Of a DNA stretch of 64,000 nucleotides, positions 2,859 to 22,858 are shown one piece after another. The stretch is from a virus (lineage: Duplodnaviria > Caudoviricetes). The DNA is taken from IMG/VR virus record IMGVR_UViG_3300005259_000074, positions 96,001-160,000 of that record; one strand, written 5' to 3'. The translations under genes and the position numbers were made by a program. Position 1 is the first letter of the stretch. The number at the start of each line of letters is the position of its first letter. The notes beneath the pieces are model-generated. The model was not told where the DNA came from. It made no database searches and worked only from the letters and a program-made list of their open reading frames with translations.

Positions 2859-3005
2859 TTACAACCGCCAGTCGTCAGCTAGCTTATTCAACTCCTCCTC
2901 CTCCTCCTCGGGGATGTCGAACTTCTTCCTCATCCCCTTGCACGCCAACTCATCGAAAGCGATATCTTCACGAAGCTGTTCATCACTTCTTCCATTTATC
3001 TTCAT
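2859..3005 (-). CDS. 48-aa acidic hypothetical protein (MKINGRSDEQ...PEEEEEELNKLADDWRL)
   Basis: Hand-translated ORF filling the gap between two leader-bearing genes. Confidence 0.35.
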   Translation of the reverse strand: MKINGRSDEQLREDIAFDELACKGMRKKFDIPEEEEEELNKLADDWRL

Positions 3006-3441
3006 CAGCTTCTATGTAAGGGTAGAACTCCTTCGTGAATGCGTTTTTGGCTATCAATTTGTGAGTGTCATCCAATTTCTCATGAGCATCAACCAATTTG
3101 TGGAAGTACTGACCCATCGAGACGATGTCGTCCATAGTCTGCCTCGGAATCATGTTAGACTTATCAGCTTTTCTCCGATACTTGCTAGCATCCTTCCAAG
3201 TGTCTTTCATCTCATCATCAGAATCTATGACATTCTTCACGTGTTCTACATCTTTAGGATTTATCTTCTCGAACTTCCCACTGACTTTTCTGAATTCTGG
3301 AGCGCCAGCTTCTCTACCGTAGAGACCTCTGCCTAACGAGTGAGTGCCGTCTGGCCCCTTCTTTTCGGAGTTCTCGTAGTGCTCGTGAAAACTGTCGCGG
3401 CGTTGGACTATGCTCTCAACTAATTCTTCGAACTTGCTCAT
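2983..3441 (-). CDS. putative head-internal protein with leader and GPxGTH module
   Basis: Starts MSKFEELVESI; contains GPDGTHSLGRGLYG...FRKVSGKFEKI. Confidence 0.7.
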   Translation of the reverse strand: MSKFEELVESIVQRRDSFHEHYENSEKKGPDGTHSLGRGLYGREAGAPEFRKVSGKFEKINPKDVEHVKNVIDSDDEMKDTWKDASKYRRKADKSNMIPRQTMDDIVSMGQYFHKLVDAHEKLDDTHKLIAKNAFTKEFYPYIEADEDKWKK

Positions 3442-3451
3442 GTCATCCCTT

Positions 3452-3853
3452 TCAGTCTGAGAAGTCTTCTACCGAGCCAACTTCCTTAATGCGCTTCAGC
3501 ATCTTGTCGTCGAACACCTTCTTAGCAGAAGCGGCGTCTTCTATCTTGACGTTAACTACGATCGTGTCGTGCTCGACGTCCACTTCTATCTCAGCCCACT
3601 TCTCCAGAGGCTCTTTGCCTCCGGACTTGCGGAACTCAGCCTCTTCATCGGGCTTCATCTTCTTGAACTTGGCTTTCTCGTCCATGTAGCTCTTGTGGAA
3701 GTCCCTCTTGAGCTGGTTGACGTGAGCACGCAAATCGGAGACGATAGCTTTGGTGTCGGTTTCGTCTTTCTTGAGGACGACGGAGAACTCAGACATCTCG
3801 TCCAGACGGTTTCCCAGCAAAAACTCTCTGACAGCTGATTCAAAAAATTTCAT
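3452..3853 (-). CDS. hypothetical protein, probable internal protein (MKFFESAVREFLL...LDE)
   Basis: ORF track 3452..3868; the ATG at 3853 gives an MKF start and lies downstream of the late promoter at 3880-3887. Confidence 0.6.
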   Translation of the reverse strand: MKFFESAVREFLLGNRLDEMSEFSVVLKKDETDTKAIVSDLRAHVNQLKRDFHKSYMDEKAKFKKMKPDEEAEFRKSGGKEPLEKWAEIEVDVEHDTIVVNVKIEDAASAKKVFDDKMLKRIKEVGSVEDFSD

Positions 3854-3879
3854 GTATGATTCCCTCATTTACTTTGTTT

Positions 3880-3887
3880 TATTTATC
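3880..3887 (-). promoter_or_regulatory. T4-type late promoter GATAAATA
   Basis: Intergenic xxTAAATA shortly upstream of a start codon; the same motif recurs before many late genes. Confidence 0.6.
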
Positions 3888-3889
3888 GC

Positions 3890-4435
3890 TCAGAAGCTCC
3901 GTTTCGCCACTAATATGTCGTCTTTCTCGTAGCCGTCTTCGAACGTGTAGGAGAACGCCTCTCCAAACACCTGCTCCAGGGCGCTCATTATGCCAGCTTC
4001 GTCGACCATGTTCCACTGTGGTATTCCACCCCTCCGGAAGTACCGGAAGTCATCGACCATGATCGTGTGGTCCCTACGATCCGGGTGTTTGGCTATCGCG
4101 CGGATCTCGGACAACACGGGGCAGCTGTCCGCGATGGGCTTTGGATCTATCGGGCTGTACGAGAAGTGGGAGTCGAGCCAGAAAGTAGCGGGGCCGGAGA
4201 ACCTAGAAAGCATGTCGGGCACACACTGAGAGCTGTCTCCGAAGAACAGAGACACCTGTGGGTAGTCTGCGAACTTCTTCTGGCACTTTCCGAACTTTAT
4301 CATGTTGCACTCGACGCTGTACGCCCGCTTGAAACCGCATTCCAGGGCCAGAGACACAGCTTCCCCCTCGCTGGTCCCAGTCTCGAAGAACACCGGGCTC
4401 ACGTACTTCTGCAGGACTTCTCTCGTCAACGGCAT
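3890..4435 (-). CDS. class I SAM-dependent methyltransferase-like protein
   Basis: FFETGTSEGE glycine loop, FFGDS, FWLDSH, IMVDD motifs typical of small glycan O-methyltransferases. Confidence 0.7.
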   Translation of the reverse strand: MPLTREVLQKYVSPVFFETGTSEGEAVSLALECGFKRAYSVECNMIKFGKCQKKFADYPQVSLFFGDSSQCVPDMLSRFSGPATFWLDSHFSYSPIDPKPIADSCPVLSEIRAIAKHPDRRDHTIMVDDFRYFRRGGIPQWNMVDEAGIMSALEQVFGEAFSYTFEDGYEKDDILVAKRSF

Positions 4436-4438
4436 CGC

Positions 4439-5314
4439 TCATCCCTCCTCTATGATCTTCAACAGATCTCTCGCTCTAGCGGCTACGGTGTGCCGCGCGG
4501 CGACTAAGTCTCTCGCGTTCTTCCCGACAGTCTTCCAAGCATCAGACTCTATCAGAGCGTCGATCTGTTCTAGCGATCTTATCTTACAGCAGGTGACACC
4601 GTCTTCGAAACCCAGCTCTCCCAGCTTCGCCATGTCGAACGTGATTATAGCAGCTCCGGCAGCTGCAGCTTCAAAGTACTTCGGCGGCACTAACCTATCG
4701 AAGACTCCACCCGAAGCGTAGTACTTAGCTGACGCTAACGCTCTCTCGTACTCGTCGGTGGTCAGCGCGTAGTTACCGAAAGTAGACGAGCACGACACCA
4801 CCGATTTCGGAAACTTCTTAGTCGCCACGTATTGGCTCACGATCCTCCTCAGGGGGTAGTTGTGGTTGACGCAGCCCGAGCACATGACCGACACGTCTCT
4901 GTCGGGGTTCCACTCTGGGACGCTCTCGACGAACCACGGTATGAAAGCGCACTTGATCCCCAAGTCTGATGCAAAAGCCTCGAAGTCTCTCGGGACTTCC
5001 TGCAGGAAGCACACTAAGTTGGGGCGGACTAACTTCGTCCAAGATTTCAGTTGAGACTCGTAATAGTCGCTGACAAACGTGTAGACGTACTCGGCGGGGC
5101 GGTGCTTCGGGACTGCATACAGCTGACAGTACGCTATGTCGTAGAACTCTCTCGGGACTTCGTACTCCTCGCACAGACGGTCCGAGCTGATCGGGTGCGG
5201 CGTTACGCTTGTACTCATCGCTCTCGGAAGAGCTGTGGCAATGCCCGTCTCCCAGAATTTGAAGTGGTCTGACTCACTCGCAGGTAAGTAGAAAGAAGCA
5301 ATGTGCAGATCCAT
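4439..5314 (-). CDS. GT-B glycosyltransferase (CgeB/GT1-like C-terminal domain)
   Basis: DVSVMCSG...YPLRR, YERALASAK, PKYFEAAAAGAAII, LGFEDG...TVGKNARDLV..RHT...RA. Confidence 0.75.
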   Translation of the reverse strand: MDLHIASFYLPASESDHFKFWETGIATALPRAMSTSVTPHPISSDRLCEEYEVPREFYDIAYCQLYAVPKHRPAEYVYTFVSDYYESQLKSWTKLVRPNLVCFLQEVPRDFEAFASDLGIKCAFIPWFVESVPEWNPDRDVSVMCSGCVNHNYPLRRIVSQYVATKKFPKSVVSCSSTFGNYALTTDEYERALASAKYYASGGVFDRLVPPKYFEAAAAGAAIITFDMAKLGELGFEDGVTCCKIRSLEQIDALIESDAWKTVGKNARDLVAARHTVAARARDLLKIIEEG

Positions 5315-5338
5315 CGTTAGTTCCTCGGTTGAGCGAAC

Positions 5339-5346
5339 TATTTACA
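5339..5346 (-). promoter_or_regulatory. T4-type late promoter TGTAAATA
   Basis: 25 nt upstream of the glycosyltransferase start at 5314. Confidence 0.6.
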
Positions 5347-5553
5347 CGCATTTTTGAGTTCAAAATCCGGGTGCTGGATGATGATTCGCTCTCAGATGTG
5401 GTTCAACGTGGGGCAGATCACTACTAGCGGTCTGCGCCTCTGGAAACACGCGTACGCCACTCGAGACCGTGTGCGGTGATCTCCGTGCGATCTACTCGCT
5501 GACACTCTAAATGAAATCTAGAGGAGACTGTGAATTATCTGTAGATGAAAAAT

Positions 5554-5631
5554 CCACCAGTTCAAAAATCTTCTTCTGAGCGGTATATTCAAGAGTTAAT
5601 CCGTTGGACGGTAAAGAATAGAGGAATTGAA
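5554..5631 (+). repeat. dispersed 78-bp intergenic element, copy 1
   Basis: 69/78 identical, ungapped, to 56117..56194 (hand alignment). Confidence 0.9.
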
Positions 5632-5714
5632 ATAGTATTAGTATCATTAAGAGATCGAGAGTACAGAACTACTGAATATTGATTTGGAGATACAGATTCG
5701 CGAAAAATCACGAG

Positions 5715-6353
5715 TCAGTTGAATACTGACGATGCCTGCTCAGAGTGCGAGACTAATTTTACTGACGCTATCATCGGCATGCACCACGTCCAAACTCGGT
5801 GTCTGCGGTAGACTTCTTCAAGCTCTCCGTACTTGTCGGCGTCGATCTTCTTCTCGCACAGTACCTTTCCCAACGACGCTCTGACGTTGTCGTTAGCGCC
5901 GGAGAATGGCGTCCAGTCCAGCTTGACTAATGTGTCGGTGGTGACCACGGGTAACGACGTGGTCTGCGTTACGGTCTGCCAGGTGATCACGTGGTCTAAG
6001 TGGCCGTACTCTCCGAACATGTTGTGGGTGAACACGCAGTCGCAACCGACAGACATAGACGTGATGTTCTTCGATATCTCCGAGAGGATGTCGCTGCGGA
6101 GGCCGTTCCTGTGGTTGACCTTCGCGAACTCGGAGTCGAAGGGGAGCACTCTGCGGTCAGCAGCTCTTATCCCGACTCTGTCGCACACTTCGAAGAGAGC
6201 GTCTTTCCTGTGCGCGCACCACTTCCTAACTGGGTTGTTCTCGTCGCTGGAGCACACTAAGATGCGCTTCTCCACCGTCGGGTCTAACAGCACGGCTGCG
6301 CCGAATATCAGCTCGTCGTCGGGATGAGACACTACGACTAAGACTCTAGACAC
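5715..6353 (-). CDS. PIG-L/LmbE family N-acetylhexosamine deacetylase
   Basis: VVSHPDDELIFG and FTHNMFGEYGHLDH metal-binding motifs. Confidence 0.85.
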   Translation of the reverse strand: MSRVLVVVSHPDDELIFGAAVLLDPTVEKRILVCSSDENNPVRKWCAHRKDALFEVCDRVGIRAADRRVLPFDSEFAKVNHRNGLRSDILSEISKNITSMSVGCDCVFTHNMFGEYGHLDHVITWQTVTQTTSLPVVTTDTLVKLDWTPFSGANDNVRASLGKVLCEKKIDADKYGELEEVYRRHRVWTWCMPMIASVKLVSHSEQASSVFN

Positions 6354-6365
6354 TAACGCACCTCG

Positions 6366-6680
6366 TCAGGAGTTCAACTTCTTCCACGCCGGCTCTGATG
6401 TCCCCTCGTCGAACCTAGCCAGCTCGAGGAGAGCGTACGATATCGTCAGTTCTGCCAACTCAGCGTCTCTGCAGGTGACTAATGCCGCTGGATCCATCTC
6501 GGGGTCGCCGTAGCAGTTGCACGCGAGAATTTTGCCCGCTTCTTCTGCGTCGAAGAACCGCTTGCTGGATGTCAGCGGACACCTGACTACGGAGCACTCG
6601 CAACTGGCTACGATTATCTCGGGATATCCGCACAGAGACATCCAGAGACACGATAAGAATCTGAACAGCTTGAACGCCAT
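6366..6680 (-). CDS. hypothetical protein
   Basis: GAGGA RBS upstream; co-oriented and tightly packed between neighbours. Confidence 0.5.
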   Translation of the reverse strand: MAFKLFRFLSCLWMSLCGYPEIIVASCECSVVRCPLTSSKRFFDAEEAGKILACNCYGDPEMDPAALVTCRDAELAELTISYALLELARFDEGTSEPAWKKLNS

Positions 6681-6727
6681 CGTGAGTCCTCCTCGGTGAC
6701 CGATTATTTACGGTTCCCGAGTCGGAA

Positions 6728-7300
6728 TCACTCCTCGAGTGCTGCTATGAAGTCGAGCGCCTGTACGACGTTGTTCGGGTGGAACACCCAGCGCTTGCCG
6801 CTGACTGACTCGAACCACTGTCTAGCTGTGTTAGTCTTCAGCTCCTTAGACATCGCTTGCCAGTCGGCGACCATCTCGGCGACGGCTTCTACTGGCATCT
6901 CGCGGACTTTTATCATCTTCTCTAGGCGATCGCGGTTCTTCGGGTCGAACACTATCGGGTCCTCGCTGTACGACTCAGGGTGGTGCCTGTTGTTGACCAC
7001 GTGGTGCAGCGTAGCGGCCCTTATAGACTCCTGGAGGTCAGCTGGGATAGCCAGGGGTGTGCCCTCGCGCTTGTTCTTGTACATCCAGTTGACCCACACG
7101 TAAGGTTCCTTCTCCTCTGCGTCGTTCAGCTTGCTGAAGTCGTGCATCCTCGGCATGTTGTCCAAGCCGAACTCGGCTGCCAGTTGCTGGTAGAACTCCT
7201 CGACGTACCCGATGTGCATCTTAGTGCGCGCGTCCGAGTATTTCTGCATCTCCGGTGTGATCTTCAAGTTCAGCGCTTCCATCATCTCTTCGAAAAGCAT
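6728..7300 (-). CDS. HD-like metal-dependent phosphohydrolase (DUF5662-like)
   Basis: TKMH...MHDFSKL...LHHVVNNRHHPE...EMVADWQAMS. Confidence 0.75.
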   Translation of the reverse strand: MLFEEMMEALNLKITPEMQKYSDARTKMHIGYVEEFYQQLAAEFGLDNMPRMHDFSKLNDAEEKEPYVWVNWMYKNKREGTPLAIPADLQESIRAATLHHVVNNRHHPESYSEDPIVFDPKNRDRLEKMIKVREMPVEAVAEMVADWQAMSKELKTNTARQWFESVSGKRWVFHPNNVVQALDFIAALEE

Positions 7301-7321
7301 GATTTCTATTTCCTCTCTGTG

Positions 7322-8188
7322 TTAAAGATCTACGAAATTATCGTAGATCATTGTCTCATAGTTGGTGATTATTAGTTCGTTCAACGCTAGACTATCTTTC
7401 CCATATTTGACTCCTCGACGAGAGTTAATCTTCTGTATGTAGAAATCATAGTATATTTTCTCTATGAAGTCGTCTCCTTCTATGTAAGAATTGCTGATCA
7501 TTGCCGAACATTTTTCGTGTCTTTTCAGACATTTCATCAACCTCAAGTGATCTTCAGGTGAAAATCCGCTTGCGTTATAAGAATCGAACGTCTTATAGTA
7601 CGGTGGATCGCAGTAGATGAATGCTCCATCATCGGCGTGTTTGTCTATGACCGTCTCAAAATCTTCATTCAATATCTCGATACATTCGAACATCGATGAT
7701 AGTTTCCTGATATTGTCTTCTTTAAATATCGTCTCAGATAAATGAGCTCTGTATGAAGAGTTGAACTCCCCTTTTGAGTTGAATCTGAACAATCCACAAT
7801 AACACGTCTTATTTAAAAACATTACTAAAGACGAACTAGCGATGATGTCTTCTTTTTTCAGAGAGTTGAATTCTCTCTTCTTAGAGTTGTAGAATTCGCG
7901 TTTGGATTCTAACGTCCCGCATGCATAGTATTCGTCTCGCAGCTCACGCAATGCGGATATCAGCTCTTCTTTAGAATCTCTTATAGCTATGTAACACGAG
8001 ATTAACATCTTGTTCTTATCGGAGACGACTATTTTTTGAGGATGATACTTTTCTACCACGTCTAATAACACTGAACCAGCTCCGACAAATGGTTCTATAT
8101 AAATGTCTATCTTCTCAGGAAAGTGTTCTCTGAGTTTTGGAAGAAGCTTTCTCTTTCCTCCTAACCACTTTAAAAACGGTTCTGGCAT
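7322..8188 (-). CDS. dam: DNA adenine methyltransferase, Dam/D12 class
   Basis: FLKWLGGKRKLL, YIEPFVGAGSV, FIYCDPPY, C-terminal ELIITNY. Confidence 0.92.
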   Translation of the reverse strand: MPEPFLKWLGGKRKLLPKLREHFPEKIDIYIEPFVGAGSVLLDVVEKYHPQKIVVSDKNKMLISCYIAIRDSKEELISALRELRDEYYACGTLESKREFYNSKKREFNSLKKEDIIASSSLVMFLNKTCYCGLFRFNSKGEFNSSYRAHLSETIFKEDNIRKLSSMFECIEILNEDFETVIDKHADDGAFIYCDPPYYKTFDSYNASGFSPEDHLRLMKCLKRHEKCSAMISNSYIEGDDFIEKIYYDFYIQKINSRRGVKYGKDSLALNELIITNYETMIYDNFVDL

Positions 8189-9080: not shown

Positions 9081-9090
9081 TCACTCTTCT

Positions 9091-9291: not shown

Positions 9292-9310
9292 GTGTAAAGA
9301 CCCCTTATGT

Positions 9311-13634: not shown

Positions 13635-13645
13635 GACACGTCCTG

Positions 13646-15277
13646 TCAGCTGAGTTTTGCGAGTTCCTTGGTGAAGCCCTCAGATATCGACAAGTTCAGC
13701 GCGAAATTGCTAGACCCGATGGGTTTCTCCCTTATCTCGAGGTCGGCTATCTCGACAACTTTCTTATCGTTGCCCATAGAATACACTATGACTGGGCGGC
13801 CGAGCCTCCCCTTCGCTACTTTCAGGTGCTCTCTGATGTCGTTCATGTCGTCGGTGCCGAACATCTTCGCGCACGCTGCTTGGTCGAACACCTTGTCACC
13901 TATGATCATTGTCTCGCGTCCAGTGGCGACAGACTTGATGGGGAACTCGTCTCTGACGCTGTCTAGTAGACCAGTGACCATCTGGTGGTTGCTCATTATC
14001 GCCTTCGTCGCAGCTTCTTGGAACAACCGCCTGTCGTTGATCACGTCTTTGACCACGGCTCGGGCTTCAGGTGTCTTGAGTTTCGCAGCTACGCTGAGCA
14101 GCGCGGCGCTGTCTTTAGCGGATATGGCGATCACTTTGGACTCGTCGTTCTTGCTCTTCAAGCTGTCCAGCAGCTCCAAGTCAGCTTTGTTCTTTATCTT
14201 CTTCTCGACCGCAGCTGCTATCTCGGGAGTCGAGAACAAGTTAGCCAGCTTCTTGTTCAGCTTGCTCTTGTACGCGACTTTGTTGATCTCCTCTGGCTCT
14301 CCGCCGTGGGGGAAGACCCCTTTGACGAGCGTGTCGAACCAGCCGTTCTTGAAGTTCGTGTAGTCGTCTTTCTTCAGAGACACTTCGTGCACTTCTACGA
14401 GGCCGTCTTTGTCGACAGTCTTGATGAAAGCGTCAGTAGAGCTCTCGGCGTCATCGTAGTCCATGCCCAGTGCGTTGACGTCTTCTCTGGCGTCCCAAGC
14501 CGCTGCGACGATCTCTTTGCCCTTGAAAGCTTTGAGCACCGCTCTCCGGTTCTTCTCCGCAGCGTCCACCCAGGACTCGTCAATAGCACACTCCTGACCA
14601 GAGGTGGTCATCTCTTTCACTCGGGCCTTAATGTCGTGGAAGAACTTCTTAGCACGCGGAGCGTCCATAGTGCACGACATTAACGACATCAGCTCTCCAG
14701 TCCTCGACTTGAGAGAACCAGCTCCGGTGTCAGTCTTCTCGGTATAGAAACTCATGCTCTTGTGGCGTTTGTCGCTCTTGAGGTCGGTGTTCAGCATCCT
14801 ATCTATGATCTGATCGTACTTCTTCGGGTACTTTCCACCGCTGTCTGGACCATCTAAGCGGAACCTCTTGAAGTTAGATAGCACTTCTCGTCTCGTGTAG
14901 AACTTTTTGTCGTCGTGGTCGCGGAGGTCTTCTTTGAAAGCTTTCTCACCCTCGTGTCCAGTCGGAGACTGTGTGACCTGCTTCTTCGGCTTCAGCTGTC
15001 GAGCAGGAGACGTCACGACGAAGCCGTCTTCGTGGTCTGACGTAGCCAGCACGTCGTTAGCTCTGGACTTAGACGGAGGTCGTTCTTTCGCTACTTTATT
15101 GAGTTCTTTTAACGTGGGACGATCTTTATCCGTAACTTTCTTGAATTTTCCATCAACTTTCCTGTAGAGAGCGATGCCTTCTTCTTTGCCGTACCATCCG
15201 CCGCCTAAGTGGTGAGTGCCCTCCGGACCAGTGTCTAGCACTGTCTCAGCTAAGTACAACAAATAGTTAAACTTCAC
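13646..15277 (-). CDS. GPxGTH-module protein with PD-(D/E)XK-like domain
   Basis: N-terminal GPEGTHHLGGGWYG...YRKVDGKF; then RTGELM ... SSTDAFI ... EVSLKKD. Confidence 0.6.
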   Translation of the reverse strand: MKFNYLLYLAETVLDTGPEGTHHLGGGWYGKEEGIALYRKVDGKFKKVTDKDRPTLKELNKVAKERPPSKSRANDVLATSDHEDGFVVTSPARQLKPKKQVTQSPTGHEGEKAFKEDLRDHDDKKFYTRREVLSNFKRFRLDGPDSGGKYPKKYDQIIDRMLNTDLKSDKRHKSMSFYTEKTDTGAGSLKSRTGELMSLMSCTMDAPRAKKFFHDIKARVKEMTTSGQECAIDESWVDAAEKNRRAVLKAFKGKEIVAAAWDAREDVNALGMDYDDAESSTDAFIKTVDKDGLVEVHEVSLKKDDYTNFKNGWFDTLVKGVFPHGGEPEEINKVAYKSKLNKKLANLFSTPEIAAAVEKKIKNKADLELLDSLKSKNDESKVIAISAKDSAALLSVAAKLKTPEARAVVKDVINDRRLFQEAATKAIMSNHQMVTGLLDSVRDEFPIKSVATGRETMIIGDKVFDQAACAKMFGTDDMNDIREHLKVAKGRLGRPVIVYSMGNDKKVVEIADLEIREKPIGSSNFALNLSISEGFTKELAKLS

Positions 15278-16296
15278 AGTATCTCTCCGTTCATGATGTT
15301 ACCACTCAGGTCTCCGCTCAGAGTCTCCAAGTAGAAGTCGTAGTAATCTAGCGTCGACATGCCCTTTGGAAAATACCCCGTGTCATTCACCAGAAGGAGG
15401 TCTCCATCAGTGGTCGTCAAGAACTGCGGATCGCCTGAGAGGGGGGCAGGCCCTGACACCAGACCTGAGACGGTCCCTGACACGTCACTCCAATATCCCG
15501 AGAGGCCGGCGGATATCGGGAGGAAGTCCCACGCGTCTAACTTTATGAGGCCGCATATGATTGCTCCCTCATACTGGGAGAACGTTGTGGTCATAGGCAC
15601 TGTGTACCAGCGGTCCAGCATGTAGTTCTCTCCGACGGTCAGTAAACCAGGAGCGAAGTTGATGCGCTTTATTAGTGGTGTCGAGTCTCCGAGAGCGTCT
15701 GGGTCTGCTCCCATCCCTGGAAATATCCAAGTCTTATATGTGAACTGGGTGTTGGCGATTATCCTGTAAGGGTCGTTCTCGGTGACCTCTTCTGGCCAGT
15801 CCACTTGTAAGTCTCCGTCCCACACCACTTGGGACTTGATGTTCTTAGTCGGTTGCTTGGGGTGTGGCCAGACCACGTAGAAGTCTGGGTTGCAGAAAGG
15901 TATGAAGTTCGACACTATCTGGTCGAGATCGCTGTGGGTCTTAGTCACTATCGAGAGTGTGAAACCTATGTTCATCGGTACTGGAGAGTTCTTTATCAGC
16001 TGTGGGAGGCCGTCTGACGTCCCCTGGTAACGCAGCCTCTGCTGTAAGTCGTATGCCCGGGTGTTGTCTCTGGTCATGGAGTTCACCGAGAGCGTGATCA
16101 GCGGTATCTTCAGCGTCTTATCTCTGTTCTCTAGTGACTTGAGGACGCGGTCGCGCTGGCCGAACACACACGGGACCTTTATCAGCTCTTGCACGACGTT
16201 CTTGTTGTCGCGGCGGTCTATCACTATCGACGAGAAGACGTCTAACAGCTGAGCGGTGCTGGTCCTAAACTCTGCATTGTAAGAGCGGTACTTCAT
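15274..16296 (-). CDS. gp15: tail sheath stabilizer/completion protein (T4 gp15-like) with SG-rich C-terminal extension
   Basis: F..IVIDR...IKVPCVFGQRDRV...IPLITL......D..R...PVPMNIGFTLSI.TK...DLDQI..NFIPF.NP. Confidence 0.85.
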   Translation of the reverse strand: MKYRSYNAEFRTSTAQLLDVFSSIVIDRRDNKNVVQELIKVPCVFGQRDRVLKSLENRDKTLKIPLITLSVNSMTRDNTRAYDLQQRLRYQGTSDGLPQLIKNSPVPMNIGFTLSIVTKTHSDLDQIVSNFIPFCNPDFYVVWPHPKQPTKNIKSQVVWDGDLQVDWPEEVTENDPYRIIANTQFTYKTWIFPGMGADPDALGDSTPLIKRINFAPGLLTVGENYMLDRWYTVPMTTTFSQYEGAIICGLIKLDAWDFLPISAGLSGYWSDVSGTVSGLVSGPAPLSGDPQFLTTTDGDLLLVNDTGYFPKGMSTLDYYDFYLETLSGDLSGNIMNGEIL

Positions 16297-16321
16297 TTGG
16301 AAAACTCCGGAAGTTGCTCTC

Positions 16322-16357
16322 TATTTATGGCGCATTGGCGCCCAACGCGTGTAAATA
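16322..16357. promoter_or_regulatory. back-to-back divergent late promoters (CATAAATA minus 16322-16329; TGTAAATA plus 16350-16357)
   Basis: Located exactly at the strand switch between gp15 and the portal gene. Confidence 0.65.
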
Positions 16358-16428
16358 CTAACGGCCGAGTTGGCCTATCGTGCAACAGTGTCAGTGACAT
16401 AGAGTTCAAATTAAGAGGAAACGACTGC

Positions 16429-19400
16429 ATGGCTATCATAGGTACCTGGACCTCGAACAACACCCAGCTGTTCGGCGGCATAAAGCGGTTCTCTCACGCG
16501 CAAGCGGAAGCCGGCAACTACAAGCTTCCAGTCTTTGACGAAGTGAAGAGAGACTCCGACGTAGTCTCAGACATGAGCGTTATTGACAAGTACTTCAAGA
16601 ACATGCAGGAGCGAGAGACGTCTGGCGCTTACTGGGATTCTACTTCGTTCGGAAAGTTCTTGTACGCTTCGATCTCGACCAACAAACCAACTAGAGTTGG
16701 CAGCTATCGCCGCATGGCGATGTTCCCGGAGGTCGGAGACGCTATCGACGAGATCTGCGACAACGCGATGGCGTTCGATGAAAACAATAAGATAGTCGCG
16801 TTTAAGCTCAACCGTAAGTTCGACGCCGCGGCCGAGAAGGAGATCAACGCCGCTGCCGAAGAGTACTTGAACTTGTTCAACTTCGAGTCTAACATGTTCG
16901 AGATCATGCGGCAGCTCGTAGTAGAGGGCGAAGTCTGCTGGGAGAACATCATATCCAAAGACCACCCGGACGCGGGCGTCATCGGCATCAACCCCATCCC
17001 ATGCGAGACTTATGATTTCGCTATCGACACTAAAGCTAATAAAAAGACTGGAATAATCATCAACATAGCTTCCTCTGACCAGTCTGCCGACAACAAAGAG
17101 GGCACTGGCAAGAACAACAATAACAAGCGCGTTGTCGGCAACATGTCAGTTGAAACGCTGTCTAGCATAAACAACTTGAGCTCCTACGAGAAGATTAAGA
17201 ACGGTGAAGTGTGCTACATGCCGTTCGAACAGGTGACCTATGCCAACACCGGGCTCATATCTTTCGACGGTCTGATGGTGTACCCCGTGCTGGAGAGGGC
17301 TAGGAAGGCTTACAACCAGCTGTCACTCATCGAAGACTCCATAATCATATACCGTCTCGTCCGCGCTCCGGAGCGCTACGTGTTCAACGTGGACACGGGG
17401 ACTGCTTCTAGGTCTAGGGCCGAACAAGAGGTCCTCAAGATGATGAAGCGGTACAACACCAAGAAGGTGTACAACCCCTCGACGGGGACGACGACGAACG
17501 AGTACGATCCCTGCCTGCTTCTCGAGTGTCTTTCGATGAACACTGGAGTTCCTCTGCTCGACGGAAGAACTCTAACTATCTCTCAGATATCTGACGAAAT
17601 GAACGGTGGAAAGCAACTCTGGGCTTACAGCTTCGATCCTGAGACTGGTAAGTTCGCCCCAGGTAAGATCAGCTGGGCTGGAGTCACGAGAAAAGACGCT
17701 GAAGTGATGAAGATCACTTTCGACAACGACAAGACGATGACAGTCACGCCCGACCACAAGTTCCCGGTATGGGGCAAAGGCAAAGTCGAAGCTAAAGACC
17801 TCGTGATCGGCGACAGCATGATAGCGTTCAACAGGAAAAAAGAGAAGATCACCGCTGAGAAGAATGACTACGAAATGATATACGATCACGCTTCGCAGAA
17901 GTGGATATACACCCACCAGGCTGTCGCAGACTACTTCAAAGGCACGCTGTGTGAGCAATACGTATGGGACGAGGAGAATTTCTCCAAGAACAAGCGCTTC
18001 TCCGTCAGACACCACAAGAACTACGATAAGTCAATGAAAGCCGCGTGGAAGCGTTCGGACAGCATTCGATCTGCTCTCAAGAAGTACAACGATGAAAAAT
18101 GGGCTGATCCTAAGAATAGAGAAAGACTTTCGGCGTGGTACAGCTTCAAGCCTTCTAAGTTGATATTCGACCGCATCACTACCGCAATTGCCGATAAAAG
18201 ATTGGCGTTCATCGATGAAGTAGTAGAATTCTGCAATTCTGATGAGCTGTGCGCAGCTGAATACTCCAGGGTACACACAAGCGTCCACACCGTCGGCGAG
18301 AAGATCAGCAGACAGTACTTGATGATGCTCTCCAAGAATTTTGGATTCGACTCCTTCAGAAGCCTGATCAGAGAGTTCAATCCAACTGCGAAGTTCGTCA
18401 ACCAGAGGACGCTCGATCGTGCTAGACTTCAGAAAAAGTTCGTCTACACGCACGACATGCTCAAGATGCTGATAGACACCGTCAAGGCCAACAGAGACAT
18501 CAAGATGAAGGAATGCGCGGTCATCCTCAAAAATGATCAGCGGTTCATGGAATTGATGGATGAAGCCAACGGTGACAACTCGCAGTACAAGAGAGAAAAA
18601 TTCGGTTGGGGGCACGTGCAGAGCCTCGTTCACTCTTTTGGATACGAAGATTTCAGGTTGTTCCGCAAAGAACTTCAGAACCACAACCACCGCGTAGTGA
18701 AGATCGAGTACCTCTCTCAGAGAGAAGACACTGGCACGCTGGTCATCGACGGAGACAACGAGTTCCACGACTATCACACGTTCGCCACTGATGCTGGAGT
18801 TGCGACATGTAACAGTTTCTGGTTCAGCAAGCCCGCTGGAAGCACTGGAACCACTGTCGACACGTTGTCATCCAGCGTCAACCTCGGCGAGATGAAGGAC
18901 TTAGACTACTTCCTCAGGAAGTTGTACGTCTCTCTCAAGATACCCTACAACAGGTACGCACAGCCGGAGATCAACATCCAACGTGGCGAGCAGATCAACT
19001 ATGAAGAGTATCGCTTTGCGAAGTTCATCATGCGCTTACAGCAGTGCCTCGCAAAGGGCCTCGCCAATGGGCTCATATCTCACCTCCGCTTAAGAGGAGT
19101 CTGGGACCGCTTGAAGTTGCGCAACAGAGATTTCATCGTCCAGTTCACTCCTCCGACCTCGTTCGACATATACGAATCACAGAAGCGCCTCCAACTCATG
19201 ACGGAGCGCTACTCGCTGATGGCGCAGTACCAAGAGATGTCCAAGACTCTCCTCCAGAAGAAGTACCTCGGGTGGACCGAGATAGACGTCGAGGAGAACT
19301 GGCGCTTCCTAGAGGAAGAGCAAATAAAAGCAGCTAAGATCCGCTGGAAGACCATGCAGATAGAGCAGACGGGTAAGGTCGGAAAACCAGGCACAGACCC

Positions 19401-19599
19401 TTACGCTTCCCAGGTCGTGGGTGCCGAGGGTCAGTCTCCAGAAGGACAACAGGGGCAGGAAAACGTGATCCAACCGTCTTCAAGCCAGAGTCAGCCCGGC
19501 CAGTACCCCGGTCTTCCACCTCCGCTACAGGACCACGAGGACGACCAGCAAGGACAAATTAAAGACGATGAGGAAGGGGACGAGAGAGATGTTGAATAA
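16429..19599 (+). CDS. gp20: portal protein (T4 gp20-like) containing an intein
   Basis: YRRMAMFPEVGDAIDEIC, LERARKAYNQL.LIEDSIIIYRLVRAPER.VFNVDTG, LGEMKDLDYF.RKLY..LKIP; AGAGGA RBS before ATG 16429. Confidence 0.95.
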   Translation: MAIIGTWTSNNTQLFGGIKRFSHAQAEAGNYKLPVFDEVKRDSDVVSDMSVIDKYFKNMQERETSGAYWDSTSFGKFLYASISTNKPTRVGSYRRMAMFPEVGDAIDEICDNAMAFDENNKIVAFKLNRKFDAAAEKEINAAAEEYLNLFNFESNMFEIMRQLVVEGEVCWENIISKDHPDAGVIGINPIPCETYDFAIDTKANKKTGIIINIASSDQSADNKEGTGKNNNNKRVVGNMSVETLSSINNLSSYEKIKNGEVCYMPFEQVTYANTGLISFDGLMVYPVLERARKAYNQLSLIEDSIIIYRLVRAPERYVFNVDTGTASRSRAEQEVLKMMKRYNTKKVYNPSTGTTTNEYDPCLLLECLSMNTGVPLLDGRTLTISQISDEMNGGKQLWAYSFDPETGKFAPGKISWAGVTRKDAEVMKITFDNDKTMTVTPDHKFPVWGKGKVEAKDLVIGDSMIAFNRKKEKITAEKNDYEMIYDHASQKWIYTHQAVADYFKGTLCEQYVWDEENFSKNKRFSVRHHKNYDKSMKAAWKRSDSIRSALKKYNDEKWADPKNRERLSAWYSFKPSKLIFDRITTAIADKRLAFIDEVVEFCNSDELCAAEYSRVHTSVHTVGEKISRQYLMMLSKNFGFDSFRSLIREFNPTAKFVNQRTLDRARLQKKFVYTHDMLKMLIDTVKANRDIKMKECAVILKNDQRFMELMDEANGDNSQYKREKFGWGHVQSLVHSFGYEDFRLFRKELQNHNHRVVKIEYLSQREDTGTLVIDGDNEFHDYHTFATDAGVATCNSFWFSKPAGSTGTTVDTLSSSVNLGEMKDLDYFLRKLYVSLKIPYNRYAQPEINIQRGEQINYEEYRFAKFIMRLQQCLAKGLANGLISHLRLRGVWDRLKLRNRDFIVQFTPPTSFDIYESQKRLQLMTERYSLMAQYQEMSKTLLQKKYLGWTEIDVEENWRFLEEEQIKAAKIRWKTMQIEQTGKVGKPGTDPYASQVVGAEGQSPEGQQGQENVIQPSSSQSQPGQYPGLPPPLQDHEDDQQGQIKDDEEGDERDVE
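17527..18813 (+). mobile_element. intein (429 aa) in portal, with degenerate HNH-type endonuclease region
   Basis: Block A CLSMNT.V.L.DG, block B TVTPDHKF, block F DTGTL.IDG..FHDYHTF, end TCN followed by Ser+1; removal restores LLE-SFWF, matching the gp20 (M)LEDYWL motif. Confidence 0.92.
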
Positions 19600-20713
19600 G
19601 TTCGAGATGCTCTGCGCCGGTATAGTGTTAGAAGGAGTCGACCCAGTCCCTTATCCGCTAGAAGTCAGCGAGAAGGGAAAATTGGCCGTCGACAGCCTGA
19701 ACAAGGGCATCGAAGACAAGATGATCCTTAACCCAGTCTTCCAAGACGCTAAGTCTCGTCTGAACAACAACATAGAGCTCATAACTTGGCACAACGGCAA
19801 CGTGCTCGGGCCAGAAGGCATGTACAACGTGGCGTACCGCGTAGACGCTATCCCTCACGGACTGCGAGACGTCCCCAAAGCTATCAAAGGACTCAAGACC
19901 ATAGTCGATTCACCAGAGCTCCCCGCGAAATTCACCAATTTCAACGCCAATTTTAGTGAGGAATGGGCAAGGACGAACTGGATCGCCCTGCGAGATGGGA
20001 TGCGGAAGTACTTGAAGATACTCGAGTCTTGGCTACCTGTGATCAAGATGCTAGACGAACTGAAACCTCTGATAGTCAAGGGTAGGCAGCCGAACCCCAA
20101 CGCAGTCCCATCGTTCCAACCTCAGAAGGCCGACCCAGCTACTGAGAAGATAGTGGTAGACGTGCTGAACCAGCTCGCGGCCCCTCTGAAACCGAAAGTG
20201 GTAGAGACTCTCGTCGCGCAAGACGAGAAGTACGTCAAGCGGTTCCAGGAGTCCGGTCTCCCAGTCAGCTACAACGACATTCGCAAGTTCTTCAAGAACG
20301 ACATCGAAGCTATGAAGGTAGTCGACTCGTGCTTGAACCCCGCTGCGACGGCCATCATCCCCAACTACAGAGACAAACTGACACAGTCCGCGACGAGATC
20401 TGTCAACGACATGGTCACTAGGTTCATCAGCAAGAACGTGGAGAAGATAGCGCCTCTGCTAGCTCGCAAGCAGGGTTCTGAAGCCAGAGTGCTCCACGGC
20501 AACCTCGATGGGATAGGTTTCAGCGGAGAGATCTCGTTCAAGTTCAACGACGGCACTAGCTTCGTAGTCAGGAACAAAGTAGTCATGAAGTACACCGCGA
20601 TGCAGCAGCAGTTCCTGCAGTTCCCGACGACTTTCCACAACGTGGTGTTCCCAGACGGCTCTAAGAAAGCGATGCAGTCTGAAGAGCAGATGCACAAAGA
20701 CTGGCTGAAGTGA
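19589..20713 (+). CDS. hypothetical virion/prohead-core-position protein
   Basis: Start overlaps the portal stop; MLNKFEML..IVLEG leader; sits between portal and protease, where T4 has gp67/gp68. Confidence 0.65.
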   Translation: MLNKFEMLCAGIVLEGVDPVPYPLEVSEKGKLAVDSLNKGIEDKMILNPVFQDAKSRLNNNIELITWHNGNVLGPEGMYNVAYRVDAIPHGLRDVPKAIKGLKTIVDSPELPAKFTNFNANFSEEWARTNWIALRDGMRKYLKILESWLPVIKMLDELKPLIVKGRQPNPNAVPSFQPQKADPATEKIVVDVLNQLAAPLKPKVVETLVAQDEKYVKRFQESGLPVSYNDIRKFFKNDIEAMKVVDSCLNPAATAIIPNYRDKLTQSATRSVNDMVTRFISKNVEKIAPLLARKQGSEARVLHGNLDGIGFSGEISFKFNDGTSFVVRNKVVMKYTAMQQQFLQFPTTFHNVVFPDGSKKAMQSEEQMHKDWLK

Positions 20714-20731
20714 AGATCCACACGAGTCTAC

Positions 20732-20739
20732 GATAAATA
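20732..20739 (+). promoter_or_regulatory. late promoter GATAAATA
   Basis: Upstream of gp21 with AGGAGG RBS. Confidence 0.6.
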
Positions 20740-20776
20740 TGTCAACGCATTCAACTAAGCACACAGGAGGCTGATA

Positions 20777-21514
20777 ATGCCGGCTGAAATCATAGCTAGC
20801 GGACTGAAACTGCTGACGGAGACTCTCTATACAGACGTAGACATCGAGACCATCGTCGAGCAGAAGAACCCGAACGAAGCGAAGTTCCTCAAGATCAGAG
20901 GACCTTACATCGTCTCCGAGAAGCGGAACATCAACGGGCGCACCTACTCCCGCTCTCTGATGGAGAGCTCGGTCGCAGAGTGGAAGAAAGAGTGGCTCGA
21001 CACGAAACGCTCTTACGCTGAGCTGAACCACCCGGACTACATCAAAGTCGACCCAAAGAACGCGTCCGACCTCATCGTCGCGCTAGAACAGCAGGGCGAC
21101 ATGTGGATTGGCGAGTCGATCGTCCTGTGCAGCGACTTCGCCCACAACATCAAGGGCACTATGAACGGAGACACCCTGGCAGCGCTGATCCAGCACGGCG
21201 GTAAGATCGGCAAGTCGACCCGCGGCGTCGGCCAGATCAGCGAAGACAAGCGCGTAGACAAGATCTACAAGCTCATAACGGTCGACACCGTGGTAGACCC
21301 ATCTGGCCCTGGGTGCATGGTCGACGGGATACTCGAGAGCAAGGAGTTCCTCATCACCGCGCACGGCGACATCATGGAGAACGCGATCAACAAGTTCGCT
21401 TCGTCTGTGGCTAACATACCGTCTCACTCTGTGAAGACGGACATCGGCAGGGAGTACGTAGTCTCGCTGTTCGACAAGTTCATAATTGACATTAATTCTA
21501 AGAGGAGCATCTGA
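20777..21514 (+). CDS. gp21: prohead core protease (T4 gp21-like)
   Basis: IRGPY...E.RNINGRTY, AELNHP, IGKSTRGVG, ITVDTVVDPS. Confidence 0.92.
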   Translation: MPAEIIASGLKLLTETLYTDVDIETIVEQKNPNEAKFLKIRGPYIVSEKRNINGRTYSRSLMESSVAEWKKEWLDTKRSYAELNHPDYIKVDPKNASDLIVALEQQGDMWIGESIVLCSDFAHNIKGTMNGDTLAALIQHGGKIGKSTRGVGQISEDKRVDKIYKLITVDTVVDPSGPGCMVDGILESKEFLITAHGDIMENAINKFASSVANIPSHSVKTDIGREYVVSLFDKFIIDINSKRSI

Positions 21515-21515
21515 C

Positions 21516-22334
21516 ATGGGTAAGTTCGAAGAGCTTTACGAGAGCATCACCGACGATCTGATTTCAGAAGGGAAAGAAAATGCCGGTCTGATGGGTCCTG
21601 ACGGAACTCACAGCATTGGACAGGGTTTCTACGGTCACCACATCGGCGAAGCTATGTTCAAGAAGGCCGGAGGCAAGTTCGTGAAAGTTAATAAGGGTGA
21701 AGGACCGTCTGACGAGCATTCAGGACACAAGAAATTGCTCGCTCAAACCGCAGCAATCGGGGAAGACGACTGGGCCGCGCGTCATAAAATCTACCAACTC
21801 GTCGGAAAAGCTGACGCTCACACTCTGCATAAATTAGCTGATCACAAAAATTTTAATGTTCGGCAAGCAGTTGCTAGCAGCTCCGAAACGCATCCCGACA
21901 CGCTGCGAAAGTTAGCTGACGATAAAAATGAACACGCGCGGAGAGAAGTTCTTATGAATCCTAAGACACCACAAGACGTGCTAAGGAAAGCTGCTAAACA
22001 TCACAGTCAGTACGTTCGATATTACGTAGCAGGGAATCCCAATGCGCATCCTGACGATCTACACAACTTAGCTAATGAGAAAAGTCATCATACAAGAAGT
22101 GAGGTCGCAAGCAATCCTAATACCAGTGAAAAGACTCTTTTGAAATTGGCCGACGACACGAATAATATCGTGAAAACTAACGTGGCTGACCACCCCAACG
22201 CTACTGAAAGAGTGTTGAACGCACTTTTAAAACATAAGAGAGAGGGGAACCAGGACCTAAGTCATGGAAACGTCGAGTTTGCTGTGGATATAGCCAGAAA
22301 GAAACTCAAGAAGAAACTTGAGAAGAAAGATTAA
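21516..22334 (+). CDS. leader + GPxGTH module + LRV/HEAT-like repeat protein
   Basis: MGKFEELYESI; five to six ~24-aa repeats (L.KLA.D....VR..VA.NP.T....L). Confidence 0.75.
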   Translation: MGKFEELYESITDDLISEGKENAGLMGPDGTHSIGQGFYGHHIGEAMFKKAGGKFVKVNKGEGPSDEHSGHKKLLAQTAAIGEDDWAARHKIYQLVGKADAHTLHKLADHKNFNVRQAVASSSETHPDTLRKLADDKNEHARREVLMNPKTPQDVLRKAAKHHSQYVRYYVAGNPNAHPDDLHNLANEKSHHTRSEVASNPNTSEKTLLKLADDTNNIVKTNVADHPNATERVLNALLKHKREGNQDLSHGNVEFAVDIARKKLKKKLEKKD

Positions 22335-22343
22335 GATATATTA

Positions 22344-22363
22344 GGACGGGAACGTTCCCGTCC
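22344..22363. repeat. perfect 20-bp palindrome GGACGGGAACGTTCCCGTCC
   Basis: Intergenic, no U-tract. Confidence 0.8.
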
Positions 22364-22381
22364 GCAAATTCGAGGAGAAAC

Positions 22382-22858
22382 ATGAGTAAATTCGAAGAAC
22401 TCTGCGAGAGCATCCTGTCGGAAGCGAAAGCTGCTGACAAGGAAGTCAAAGGTAGGAACTCCAAGGGCCAACTGCGGGGTCCCGAAGGTACTCACTCTCT
22501 CGGCGGCGGCTTCTACGGTAAGAACAAGGGCGAAGCTGAGTACAGGAAGGTCGACGGAAAGTTCGAGAAGATAGACTCCACCACTCACCACATAGACCTA
22601 GACATCGCCGACGAGCGCGGCTTACTCCGAAATAAGAATAAACTGCCTTTCAAGCATATTGTCAAGGTCAAGCAGCACGGGCCAGGCGGCGGGAACCCGG
22701 TCTACAGGTTCGCAGCAGACAGACACACGCTGCACCGCTACATACACAAGCACTACGCGAACGACGCAGAAGAAGCCAGAGAGCTGATGAACAGCGCGAA
22801 GAAGTCTTCCGACGACGAGCTGAAAGAGCTCAAGAAGATGGAGAAAGCCGAGCATTGA
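22382..22858 (+). CDS. leader + GPxGTH module + small C-terminal domain
   Basis: MSKFEELCESILSEA; GPEGTHSLGGGFYG...YRKVDGKFEKI; GAGGAG RBS. Confidence 0.75.
   Translation: MSKFEELCESILSEAKAADKEVKGRNSKGQLRGPEGTHSLGGGFYGKNKGEAEYRKVDGKFEKIDSTTHHIDLDIADERGLLRNKNKLPFKHIVKVKQHGPGGGNPVYRFAADRHTLHRYIHKHYANDAEEARELMNSAKKSSDDELKELKKMEKAEH

What the first reader, a model, noticed from the sequence alone, without database searches (positions are those of the whole stretch)
2983..22858. A 32-residue GPxGTHxLGxGxYG..KxxGKF module is grafted onto four unrelated cargo proteins
The same module occurs right after the N-terminal leader at 3263-3358(-), 15134-15229(-), 21594-21689(+) and 22478-22573(+): GPDGTHSLGRGLYGREAGAPEFRKVSGKFEKI / GPEGTHHLGGGWYGKEEGIALYRKVDGKFKKV / GPDGTHSIGQGFYGHHIGEAMFKKAGGKFVKV / GPEGTHSLGGGFYGKNKGEAEYRKVDGKFEKI. 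The sequences after it are unrelated: a small helical domain, a PD-(D/E)XK-like nuclease, LRV/HEAT repeats, and a small alpha/beta domain. All four lie in late-promoter units, and two sit directly behind the prohead protease. Inference: this is a constant packaging/ejection or DNA-binding adaptor with swappable effector cargo, i.e. a polymorphic set of proteins injected with the genome. This is the best candidate for an undescribed system in the window.
Basis: partly seen in the sequence, partly recalled or inferred. Interest (0 to 1): 0.85.

Follow-up and report, generated by a model that had tools for sequence, protein, structure and literature searches.

The report
Shared mini-domain on phage head cargo proteins
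An uncultured T4-like jumbo phage puts a T4-style capsid-loading tag on about 15 genes, and six of these also carry an undescribed 32-residue mini-domain joined to unrelated cargo domains; what the mini-domain does is unknown.

Summary
The 32-residue module GPxGTHxLGxGxYG..KxxGKFxK(I/V) is present in all four window ORFs, and in two more outside the window. It is conserved at protein level while synonymous sites are scrambled, and the C-terminal parts are unrelated.

The reading needs re-centring. The window lies in a 262-kb T4-like jumbo phage with a gp20 portal, an S77 gp21-type protease and a gp23 capsid protein. The short "leader" before the module, MSKF(Q/E)ELYE, is the more general element. 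It heads about 15 genes, most without the module. These cluster beside the protease, scaffold and capsid genes. The leader matches the T4 capsid targeting sequence, including the L/I-x-E protease site.

So the leader is the likely packaging address. The module is a second, optional part: a two-hairpin, mildly basic mini-domain predicted with high confidence, which should stay on the mature protein. It has no match in Pfam, PHROGs, PDB sequences, cultured phages or the literature. Only about a dozen relatives exist, all in freshwater metagenome fragments, on at least nine unrelated cargos.

This scan has already found CTS-like leader expansions in other T4-like jumbo phages. It has not found this module before. 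No virion data exist, and the module's function is inferred only.

The parts
22382..22858 (+). Module protein (158 aa). Leader residues 1-9 are at 22382-22408 and the module at 22478-22573. The cargo is a ferredoxin-like alpha/beta domain from residue ~65.
   Evidence: (AF2 pLDDT 85); the cargo is homologous to a stand-alone 83-aa protein of phage Muldoon
21516..22334 (+). Module protein (272 aa from ATG 21516). The leader is MGKFEELYE, the module is at 21594-21689, and the cargo is LRV/HEAT repeats. It starts 2 nt after the protease stop codon.
   Evidence: Pfam LRV 51.7 bits; AGGAG before ATG 21516
13646..15277 (-). Module protein (543 aa). It has a divergent leader ending in LAE, the module at 15134-15229, a low-confidence linker of ~70-100 aa, and then a large cargo with a possible restriction-endonuclease-like core. 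Its GTG start overlaps the gp15 stop codon.
   Evidence: (60% identical, syntenic homologue)
2983..3441 (-). Module protein (152 aa). The leader is at 3415-3441, the module at 3262-3357, and the cargo is a small helical domain.
20777..21514 (+). gp21-type prohead serine protease (Peptidase_S77), the presumed enzyme that removes the leaders.
19568..20713 (+). 381-aa protein between portal and protease. From its internal Met (19589) it has a leader-like start, MLNKFEML..IVLE, and no module.
2702..2800 (-). 32-aa ORF that starts with the full leader MSKFEELYES and has no module or cargo. It is either a remnant or a mini-gene.
16297..19599 (+). T4 gp20-type portal with an inserted intein (context).
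15274..16296 (-). T4 gp15-type tail sheath stabiliser, translationally coupled to the 543-aa module protein (context).

Best explanation
These genes encode T4-type head-internal proteins with a two-part N-terminus.

Part 1, the leader MSKF(Q/E)ELYE, is a capsid-targeting propeptide. It brings the protein into the scaffolding core of the prohead, and the gp21-type protease then cuts it off after the Glu of L-x-E. This rests on inference from close similarity to the T4 CTS and from gene context.

Part 2, the 32-residue module, is an autonomous, mildly basic mini-domain made of two beta-hairpins. It has no conserved cleavage motif, so it should stay at the new N-terminus of the mature protein. 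It is joined through linkers of variable length to interchangeable cargo domains: LRV repeats, a ferredoxin-like domain, a helical domain and a large, possibly nuclease-like domain.

My best guess for the module's role is a common docking function inside the filled head. It would hold the cargo on the packaged DNA or on core remnants, so that the cargo leaves with the DNA. I put this at about 35-40% among the alternatives, and it is pure inference. Shuffling of cargos behind a constant N-terminus is shown by comparison with relatives.
For: Phage type: gp20 portal, S77 protease and gp15; gp23 capsid protein at 287 bits and a coiled-coil scaffold gene directly next to the leader-gene array.

Leader:
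- About 15 ORFs start with MSKF(Q/E/D)(E/D)LYE-type sequences. Seven of them lie in one array immediately upstream of the scaffold and capsid genes, and two lie behind the protease.
- The leader codons vary synonymously and the upstream DNA is not conserved.
- L/I-x-E is about 5 times enriched in the first 25 residues compared with the rest, 0.058 against 0.012 per position.
- The T4 CTS is 10 residues. Targeting depends on positions 4 and 7, processing depends on positions 8 and 10, and the protease motif is L/I-X-E (PMC9026906). The T4 sequence MKTYQEFIAE (PMC8442874) lines up with F4 and L7 here.

Module:
- It has six copies in the genome.
- A profile search of 1.84 billion representatives gives 14 hits. 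Six are the phage's own, seven are real foreign ones, almost all with the same leader, and one is spurious. Four more turn up at 90% clustering.
- There are at least nine cargo groups without mutual similarity.
- AF2 gives the same four-strand pattern with pLDDT ~90 in two different proteins. In the 543-aa protein a low-confidence linker follows the module.
- All structural matches of the 158-aa model start at residue 65-68, just after the module.
- The module's net charge is +1 to +6 in every member, while cargo charge ranges from -10 to +12.

Grafting:
- One cargo domain occurs alone in phage Muldoon.
- At the syntenic site next to the cytidylyltransferase gene, a related contig carries a module protein with a different cargo.
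- Fusion variants exist, leader-domain-module-cargo and leader-module-leader-cargo.
Against: There is no experimental evidence of any kind. The closest cultured phage has a capsid protein only ~36% identical, so no virion proteome applies.

Most leader genes lack the module, so it is not needed for packaging. Its positive charge is small. No fold or sequence relative points to DNA binding.

One copy (21516-22334) has an I-G-E inside the module, so retention is not certain for every member.

The leader differs from the T4 CTS in detail: Ser2 is inserted and the cleavage Glu is at position 9, not 10.
Confidence: 0.55

Rival explanations
1. The 32-residue module is itself the packaging adaptor, needed for encapsidation or ejection, and the short leader is only a processing signal.
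For: The module always lies close behind the leader. It sits on at least nine unrelated cargos. Its genes lie beside the head genes.
Against: About nine genes in the same arrays have the identical leader and no module. In T4 the 10-residue CTS alone is sufficient (PMC9026906). One metagenomic variant carries the module far from the N-terminus, behind another domain (P0027).
Confidence: 0.12
2. The module acts after injection. It would be a shared domain that takes different effector domains to one host target, such as the nucleoid, a host protein or the envelope, while the leader alone handles packaging.
For: The architecture, a constant small domain plus variable effector-like domains, resembles polymorphic effector systems. 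The module is predicted as an autonomous fold. A variant is predicted to release the module as a separate product (P0020).
Against: Nothing resembles a known targeting domain. The host is unknown. The idea cannot be told apart from the docking hypothesis with sequence data.
Confidence: 0.18
3. These are ordinary paralogues. The six genes simply descend from one ancestral gene, the N-terminus is the slowest-evolving part, and the C-termini have diverged beyond recognition. There is then no modular exchange and no special adaptor role.
For: Some members do share cargo: 22382-22858 with P0008 and P0014; P0009 with P0012; 21516-22334 with P0016.
Against: The cargos have clearly different folds and sizes: LRV repeats, a ferredoxin-like domain, a helical bundle and a 400-aa mixed domain. 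One cargo has a stand-alone homologue in a distant phage. Linker lengths vary from 4 to 45 residues.
Confidence: 0.08
4. The shared leader is not a capsid signal but another kind of sorting or regulatory N-terminus, for example for translation initiation or for a different compartment. The proteins would then not be virion components.
For: There is no proteomic evidence, and no T4 late promoter lies upstream.
Against: Conservation is at the amino-acid level, with free synonymous change and no conserved upstream DNA. The L/I-x-E motif is enriched. The genes cluster tightly with the protease, portal, scaffold and capsid genes.
Confidence: 0.07

Closest known systems
Phage T4 internal proteins IPI, IPII and IPIII (and Alt), with their capsid targeting sequence, processed by the gp21 prohead protease
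   Same: A short N-terminal propeptide has hydrophobic residues at positions 4 and 7 and an L/I-x-E cleavage motif. The same tag sits on otherwise unrelated proteins. A gp21-type S77 protease is encoded next to the genes. The cargo set varies between related phages.
   Different: About 15 tagged genes here against a handful in T4. The leader sequence differs (MSKFQELYE against MKTYQEFIAE). Six members carry an extra conserved 32-residue domain between propeptide and cargo, which T4 internal proteins are not known to have. The mature parts show no homology to T4 internal proteins (PHROGs).
CTS-like leader expansions noted earlier in this scan in other uncultured T4-like jumbo phages (e1-5321603, e1-5340821, e1-5348662, e1-4642399, e1-4335524)
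   Same: A T4-related large phage in which one short leader with the protease motif sits on a dozen or more unrelated genes near the head genes.
   Different: Those notes describe leaders only. None reports a second conserved domain behind the leader, and the exact leader here has no match in IMG/VR outside this genome.
Ejection and inner-body proteins of phiKZ-like giant phages (phiKZ, 201phi2-1, SPN3US)
   Same: Many head-internal proteins are trimmed after Glu by a gp21-related protease, and their propeptides contain redundant cleavage sites (PMC9026906).
   Different: The phage lineage and the motif (S/A-x-E) are different, and no shared leader or shared post-leader mini-domain has been described there.

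Membership tests
T4-type CTS-bearing head-internal proteins | N-terminal propeptide of ~10 residues with hydrophobic or aromatic residues at positions 4 and 7 and an L/I-x-E cleavage site at its end | tested here: met
   F4, L7 and L7-Y8-E9 are present in 13 of 15 leader ORFs. L/I-x-E is 5-fold enriched in the first 25 residues. The rule is taken from PMC9026906.
T4-type CTS-bearing head-internal proteins | The phage encodes a gp21-type (Peptidase S77) prohead protease and T4-type head genes | tested here: met
   Peptidase_S77 66.5 bits, Portal_T4 279.8 bits and Gp23 287.5 bits
T4-type CTS-bearing head-internal proteins | The same leader on several mutually unrelated proteins | tested here: met
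T4-type CTS-bearing head-internal proteins | Presence in the virion with the leader removed, and delivery into the host | not testable with these tools
   There is no cultured relative (best capsid identity ~36%) and no proteome.
T4-type CTS-bearing head-internal proteins | Sequence homology of the mature part to IPI, IPII, IPIII or Alt | tested here: not met
   No PHROG or Pfam family matches the four proteins except LRV. This is not decisive, because T4-type internal proteins are polymorphic by nature.
Any described domain family for the 32-residue module | A significant match to a Pfam, PHROG or PDB sequence profile | tested here: not met
   Pfam best E 0.015 in one member only. PDB sequences best E 1.2, a chance hit on tubulin. 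PHROGs none. No literature hit for the motif strings.
PD-(D/E)XK restriction-endonuclease-like fold (HaeIII/MspI/HinP1I type), for the cargo of 13646-15277 | Alpha-beta-beta-beta core with an acidic residue on strand 2 and an (D/E/Q/N/S)-x-K on strand 3, and structural similarity to solved members | tested here: inconclusive
   ESM Atlas neighbours include clusters labelled RE_HaeIII, MspI and HinP1I (TM 0.43/0.68). The AF2 core of helix plus three strands carries T-D at 281-282 and S-L-K at 300-302, conserved in the homologue. However, the mean pLDDT is 59, there is no endonuclease among the VIA matches and no Pfam hit.
LRV / HEAT repeats, for the cargo of 21516-22334 | Pfam LRV above the gathering score | tested here: met
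   LRV 51.7 bits (cut-off 21.6) and LRV_2 38 bits (cut-off 27). The metagenomic relative P0016 also matches LRV.

The most novel reading that the evidence does not exclude
The module is a new kind of second address layer for capsid cargo. It would be a portable mini-domain that tethers a chosen subset of CTS-loaded proteins to the packaged, hypermodified DNA or to the portal region. That would decide which proteins leave first with the genome. If so, leader plus module would let the injected subset be told apart from the merely packaged subset from sequence alone.
Probability: 0.2. Interest if true: 0.7.

Novelty: new variant of a known kind. Interest (0 to 1): 0.45.

Why it matters
T4's capsid targeting sequence is the textbook example of a virus loading chosen proteins into its head, and it is used as a delivery tool. 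This phage lineage shows the same principle on a larger scale. It also adds a feature not described for T4: a conserved, foldable mini-domain between the cleavable tag and the cargo.

If that domain controls where cargo sits in the head, or whether it is ejected, it would be a new handle on a poorly understood step: how internal proteins leave with the DNA. It could also become a practical part for engineered cargo delivery in laboratory phage systems.

If the domain turns out to be only a conserved spacer, the finding reduces to one more CTS-type cargo repertoire, of which this scan already holds several.

Tried and rejected
- **Complex prediction.** The protease with residues 1-66 of the 158-aa module protein scored 0.01 against a mark of 0.34. 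This gives no verdict and is evidence neither for nor against binding.
- **Relatives in IMG/VR.** Scans with the module or with leader+module alignments gave pattern hits, but none was confirmed. The exact leader pattern found nothing.
- **JGI metagenome contigs.** Nothing was confirmed.
- **GTDB genome contigs.** A degenerate DNA pattern found one chance match in a Terriglobales MAG, which lacks the second half of the module.
- **Cultured phages (INPHARED).** There was no DNA match and no module match even at E 10. Only the cargo domain of 22382-22858 matched, in phage Muldoon.
- **Fold searches.** Foldseek against the PDB gave no match at E<=0.001 with the 158-aa model. VIA-align gave only a generic ferredoxin-like arrangement for the cargo (Z<=5.5), and the module region was not covered. 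For the 543-aa model only helical fragments matched. The module was not folded alone, so I do not claim that its fold is new.
- **Tubulin.** A match to the tubulin glycine-rich signature (E 1.2) was dismissed as chance.
- **T4 late promoter.** TATAAATA is absent upstream of all leader genes, and a sigma-70/terminator scan was uninformative.
- **The 536-aa ORF at 225-1835(-).** I tested whether it is a module-less paralogue of the 543-aa protein; there is no similarity.
- **The 32-aa leader ORF.** I tested whether it is the frameshifted start of the cytidylyltransferase gene; there is no continuous frame.
- **A second conserved cleavage site after the module.** None was found. The KFE-K position has no L/I at P3, and the Glu is not conserved.
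Full report
**1. The observation**

The fourth, 3263-3358(-), is out of frame by one base; the module there is at 3262-3357 within ORF 2983-3441(-). The four carrier ORFs are:
- 2983-3441(-), 152 aa
- 13646-15277(-), 543 aa, with a GTG start that overlaps the stop codon of the gp15 gene
- 21516-22334(+), 272 aa from the ATG, which follows an AGGAG; the longer TTG start lies inside the protease gene
- 22382-22858(+), 158 aa

Fifteen of 32 columns are invariant among the four copies. A profile of the module finds six places in the whole 262,470-bp genome, at E 1e-16 to 1e-21: the four above and two adjacent genes at genome 52738-53160(-) and 53166-53627(-). GPxGTH occurs nowhere else in the six-frame translation. 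Between copies, nucleotide identity is only 59-69%, and roughly half of the codons for identical residues differ synonymously. These are therefore old copies held by selection on the protein, not a recent DNA repeat.

**2. What kind of genome this is**

The window is G000:C1:96001-160000 of an IMG/VR virus record, estimated to be 97% complete. It encodes:
- a T4 gp20-type portal with an intein (16297-19599)
- a Peptidase_S77 gp21-type prohead protease (20777-21514)
- a gp15-type sheath stabiliser (15274-16296)
- baseplate hub proteins

The gp23-type capsid gene and a coiled-coil scaffold gene lie at genome 49144-51556(-). The capsid protein is at most ~36% identical to that of any cultured phage; the nearest are T4-like cyanophages. 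This is therefore a deep, uncultured branch of the T4-like phages.

**3. The leader is the wider phenomenon**

About 15 ORFs in the genome begin with MSKF(Q/E/D)(E/D)LYE or a close variant:
- Eight lie in one tandem array at genome 51768-55591(-), directly upstream of the scaffold and capsid genes.
- Two lie directly behind the protease.
- One leader-like variant (MLNKFEML..IVLE) heads the 381-aa gene between portal and protease.
- A 32-aa ORF at 2702-2800(-) consists of little more than the leader.

Only six of these carry the module. One leader-only member is a DUF5856 protein.

The leader codons differ synonymously from gene to gene and the upstream DNA is not conserved, so the peptide itself is under selection.

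The leader fits what is established for T4. The capsid targeting sequence is the first 10 residues of IPIII. Positions 4 and 7 matter for targeting and positions 8 and 10 for processing, and gp21 cuts after Glu in L/I-X-E (PMC9026906). The T4 sequence is MKTYQEFIAE (PMC8442874). Here F4 and L7 occupy the targeting positions, and L7-Y8-E9 forms the cleavage motif.

L/I-x-E is about five times more frequent in the first 25 residues of these ORFs than in the rest. Several leaders hold a second site a few residues on, as described for propeptides of giant phages (PMC9026906). The divergent leaders of the 543-aa protein and of its homologue P0022 end in L-A-E and I-V-E.

The T-even internal proteins are described as a highly diverse set sharing only the CTS (PMC3012670). 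This scan has already reported such leader expansions in other uncultured T4-like jumbo phages. I had reached the CTS reading before looking those notes up, and they agree with it.

**4. The module itself**

An exhaustive profile search of 1.84 billion cluster representatives returned 14 proteins at E<=0.001. Six are this phage's own, seven are real foreign members and one is a spurious repeat protein. A second search at 90% clustering added four more.

All foreign members come from short ENA metagenome contigs from a few samples, and each cluster has only one or two sequences. Nearly all carry the same leader in front of the module, separated by 4 to 45 residues, with a semi-conserved E-N-x-x-L-x just before the GP.

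Nothing was found anywhere else:
- INPHARED phages
- IMG/VR
- JGI metagenomes
- GTDB genomes, where the one hit was a chance match
- Pfam, PHROGs and PDB sequences
- the literature

AlphaFold2 on the 158-aa protein (mean pLDDT 85) gives a leader/linker helix (residues 3-26) and then four short strands forming two hairpins (38-41, 44-46, 54-57, 60-63), with block pLDDT of 88-91. The 543-aa protein gives the same four-strand pattern at pLDDT ~91, even though the rest of that model is poor and a low-confidence linker of ~70-100 residues follows the module. All structural matches of the 158-aa model begin at residue 65-68, immediately after the module.

The module therefore behaves as a separate, autonomously predicted unit. 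It was not folded alone, so I make no claim that its fold is new. Its net charge is +1 to +6 in every member, whatever the charge of the cargo, which ranges from -10 to +12. It has no conserved L/I-x-E, so it should remain on the mature protein. One copy does have an I-G-E inside the module.

**5. The cargo**

BLASTP of the parts behind the module sorts 15 members into at least nine groups with no similarity between groups.

- *22382-22858.* This cargo groups with P0008 and P0014. It is a ferredoxin-like alpha/beta domain and is homologous to a stand-alone 83-aa protein of Serratia phage Muldoon that has neither leader nor module (pairwise E 2e-11). The junction lies exactly at the start of that domain.
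- *21516-22334.* LRV/HEAT repeats, as in P0016.
- *2983-3441.* Helical in the ESM Atlas model.
- *13646-15277.* This cargo has a 60% identical, syntenic homologue that lies between gp15 and a DUF6267 gene. Its Atlas model resembles viral clusters partly labelled as HaeIII, MspI or HinP1I endonucleases. The confident part of the AF2 model is a helix followed by three strands carrying T-D (281-282) and S-L-K (300-302), both conserved in the homologue. That spacing resembles what I recall for HinP1I/MspI-type enzymes, but the recollection is a lead, not a test. Pfam and VIA-align gave no endonuclease match, so the nuclease reading stays inconclusive.

**6. Evidence for exchange of parts**

At the conserved position next to the cytidylyltransferase gene, this phage has the 152-aa protein. 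A related 11.5-kb contig has a module protein with a different cargo there, preceded by two leader-only genes.

Two metagenomic variants show rearranged orders. P0027 runs leader, extra domain, an L-D-E site, module, cargo. P0020 runs leader, module, second leader, cargo. If P0020 is real, processing would release the module as a product of its own, which argues that the module has a function in itself. These could also be assembly or gene-calling artefacts.

**7. Mechanism**

*Shown:* the domain architecture, the protein-level conservation, the T4-type head gene context, the CTS-like leader with its cleavage motif, and the cargo diversity.

*Inferred from T4:* the leader targets the proteins to the scaffolding core and gp21 removes it, and the mature proteins stay in the head and are delivered with the DNA.

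*Speculative:* the role of the module. I favour a common docking function inside the filled head, on DNA or on core remnants, which would favour exit together with the DNA. My reasons are that the module is constant, small, always basic, independent of cargo, and sits at the new N-terminus. A role after injection, as a shared host-targeting domain, is the main alternative.

**8. Claims not supported**

No T4 late promoter (TATAAATA) lies upstream of any leader gene. The four copies in the window are at 30892, 34052, 53710 and 58713. Late expression is plausible only from co-orientation and tight spacing with structural genes. The complex prediction of protease with leader+module gave no verdict.

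**9. Verdict**

This is a real and statistically solid feature. The general principle, a CTS-type tag on polymorphic head cargo, is known from T4 and has been seen repeatedly in this scan. The conserved 32-residue post-leader mini-domain is undescribed and is confined to a small uncultured freshwater clade. I class it as a new variant of a known kind, of moderate interest, limited by the complete lack of functional evidence for the module.

Noticed in passing
window 2702-2800 (-): A 32-aa ORF that begins with the complete leader MSKFEELYES and then stops. It lies between the 152-aa module gene and the cytidylyltransferase gene and is not in frame with either neighbour. It may be a decayed cargo gene or a leader-only peptide.
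   Followed up: partly
window 19568-20713 (+): The 381-aa gene between portal and protease, at the position of T4 gp67/gp68, has a leader-like start from its internal Met at 19589 (MLNKFEML..IVLE). It matches no family.
   Followed up: partly
genome 51768-55591 (-), outside the window (L005, L006): A tandem array of eight genes that all start with MSKF(Q/D)(E/D). It lies directly upstream of the scaffold and gp23 capsid genes. Two of the genes carry the module and one is a DUF5856 protein.
   Followed up: yes
window 22344-22363: A perfect 20-nt palindrome (GGACGGGAAC/GTTCCCGTCC) in the 47-nt gap between the two module genes behind the protease. No T-run follows it, so it does not look like a typical terminator.
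   Followed up: no
window 30892, 34052, 53710, 58713 (+): The T4 late-promoter octamer TATAAATA occurs four times in the window against 0.5 expected. The copy at 34052 lies just upstream of ORF 34091-34756, which starts with MKFDVF.
   Followed up: no
window 49585-50163 (+): A HAD-type protein (DxDxT-like FDFDDT) whose N-terminus, MKFFDILTELTLSE, contains two L-x-E motifs. It may be another capsid-targeted enzyme.
   Followed up: no
L016:1086-3228 (ENA contig GROS21-1 scaffold_9293): A related phage fragment, syntenic with window 225-3441. It has two leader-only genes and a module protein with a different cargo at the place of the 152-aa gene, followed by a possible lipoprotein gene.
   Followed up: partly
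P0027 and P0020 (metagenomic proteins; L011 for P0020): Rearranged architectures: leader-domain-(LDE site)-module-cargo, and leader-module-second leader-cargo. They suggest fusion and fission at leader sequences, or assembly artefacts.
   Followed up: no
L017:2399-2650 (Serratia phage Muldoon gp091): An 83-aa hypothetical protein homologous to the cargo domain of 22382-22858. They share the motif QHGPGGG-P and a later HY. The Muldoon protein stands alone without a leader, so this small domain is widespread in T4-like phages and its function is unknown.
   Followed up: partly
window 3890-11935 (-): A cluster of glycosyltransferases, a PIG-L deacetylase and a Dam-type methyltransferase lies between two of the module genes. 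The invariant Thr of the module (G-T-H) could in principle be a glycosylation site. This is pure speculation.
   Followed up: no
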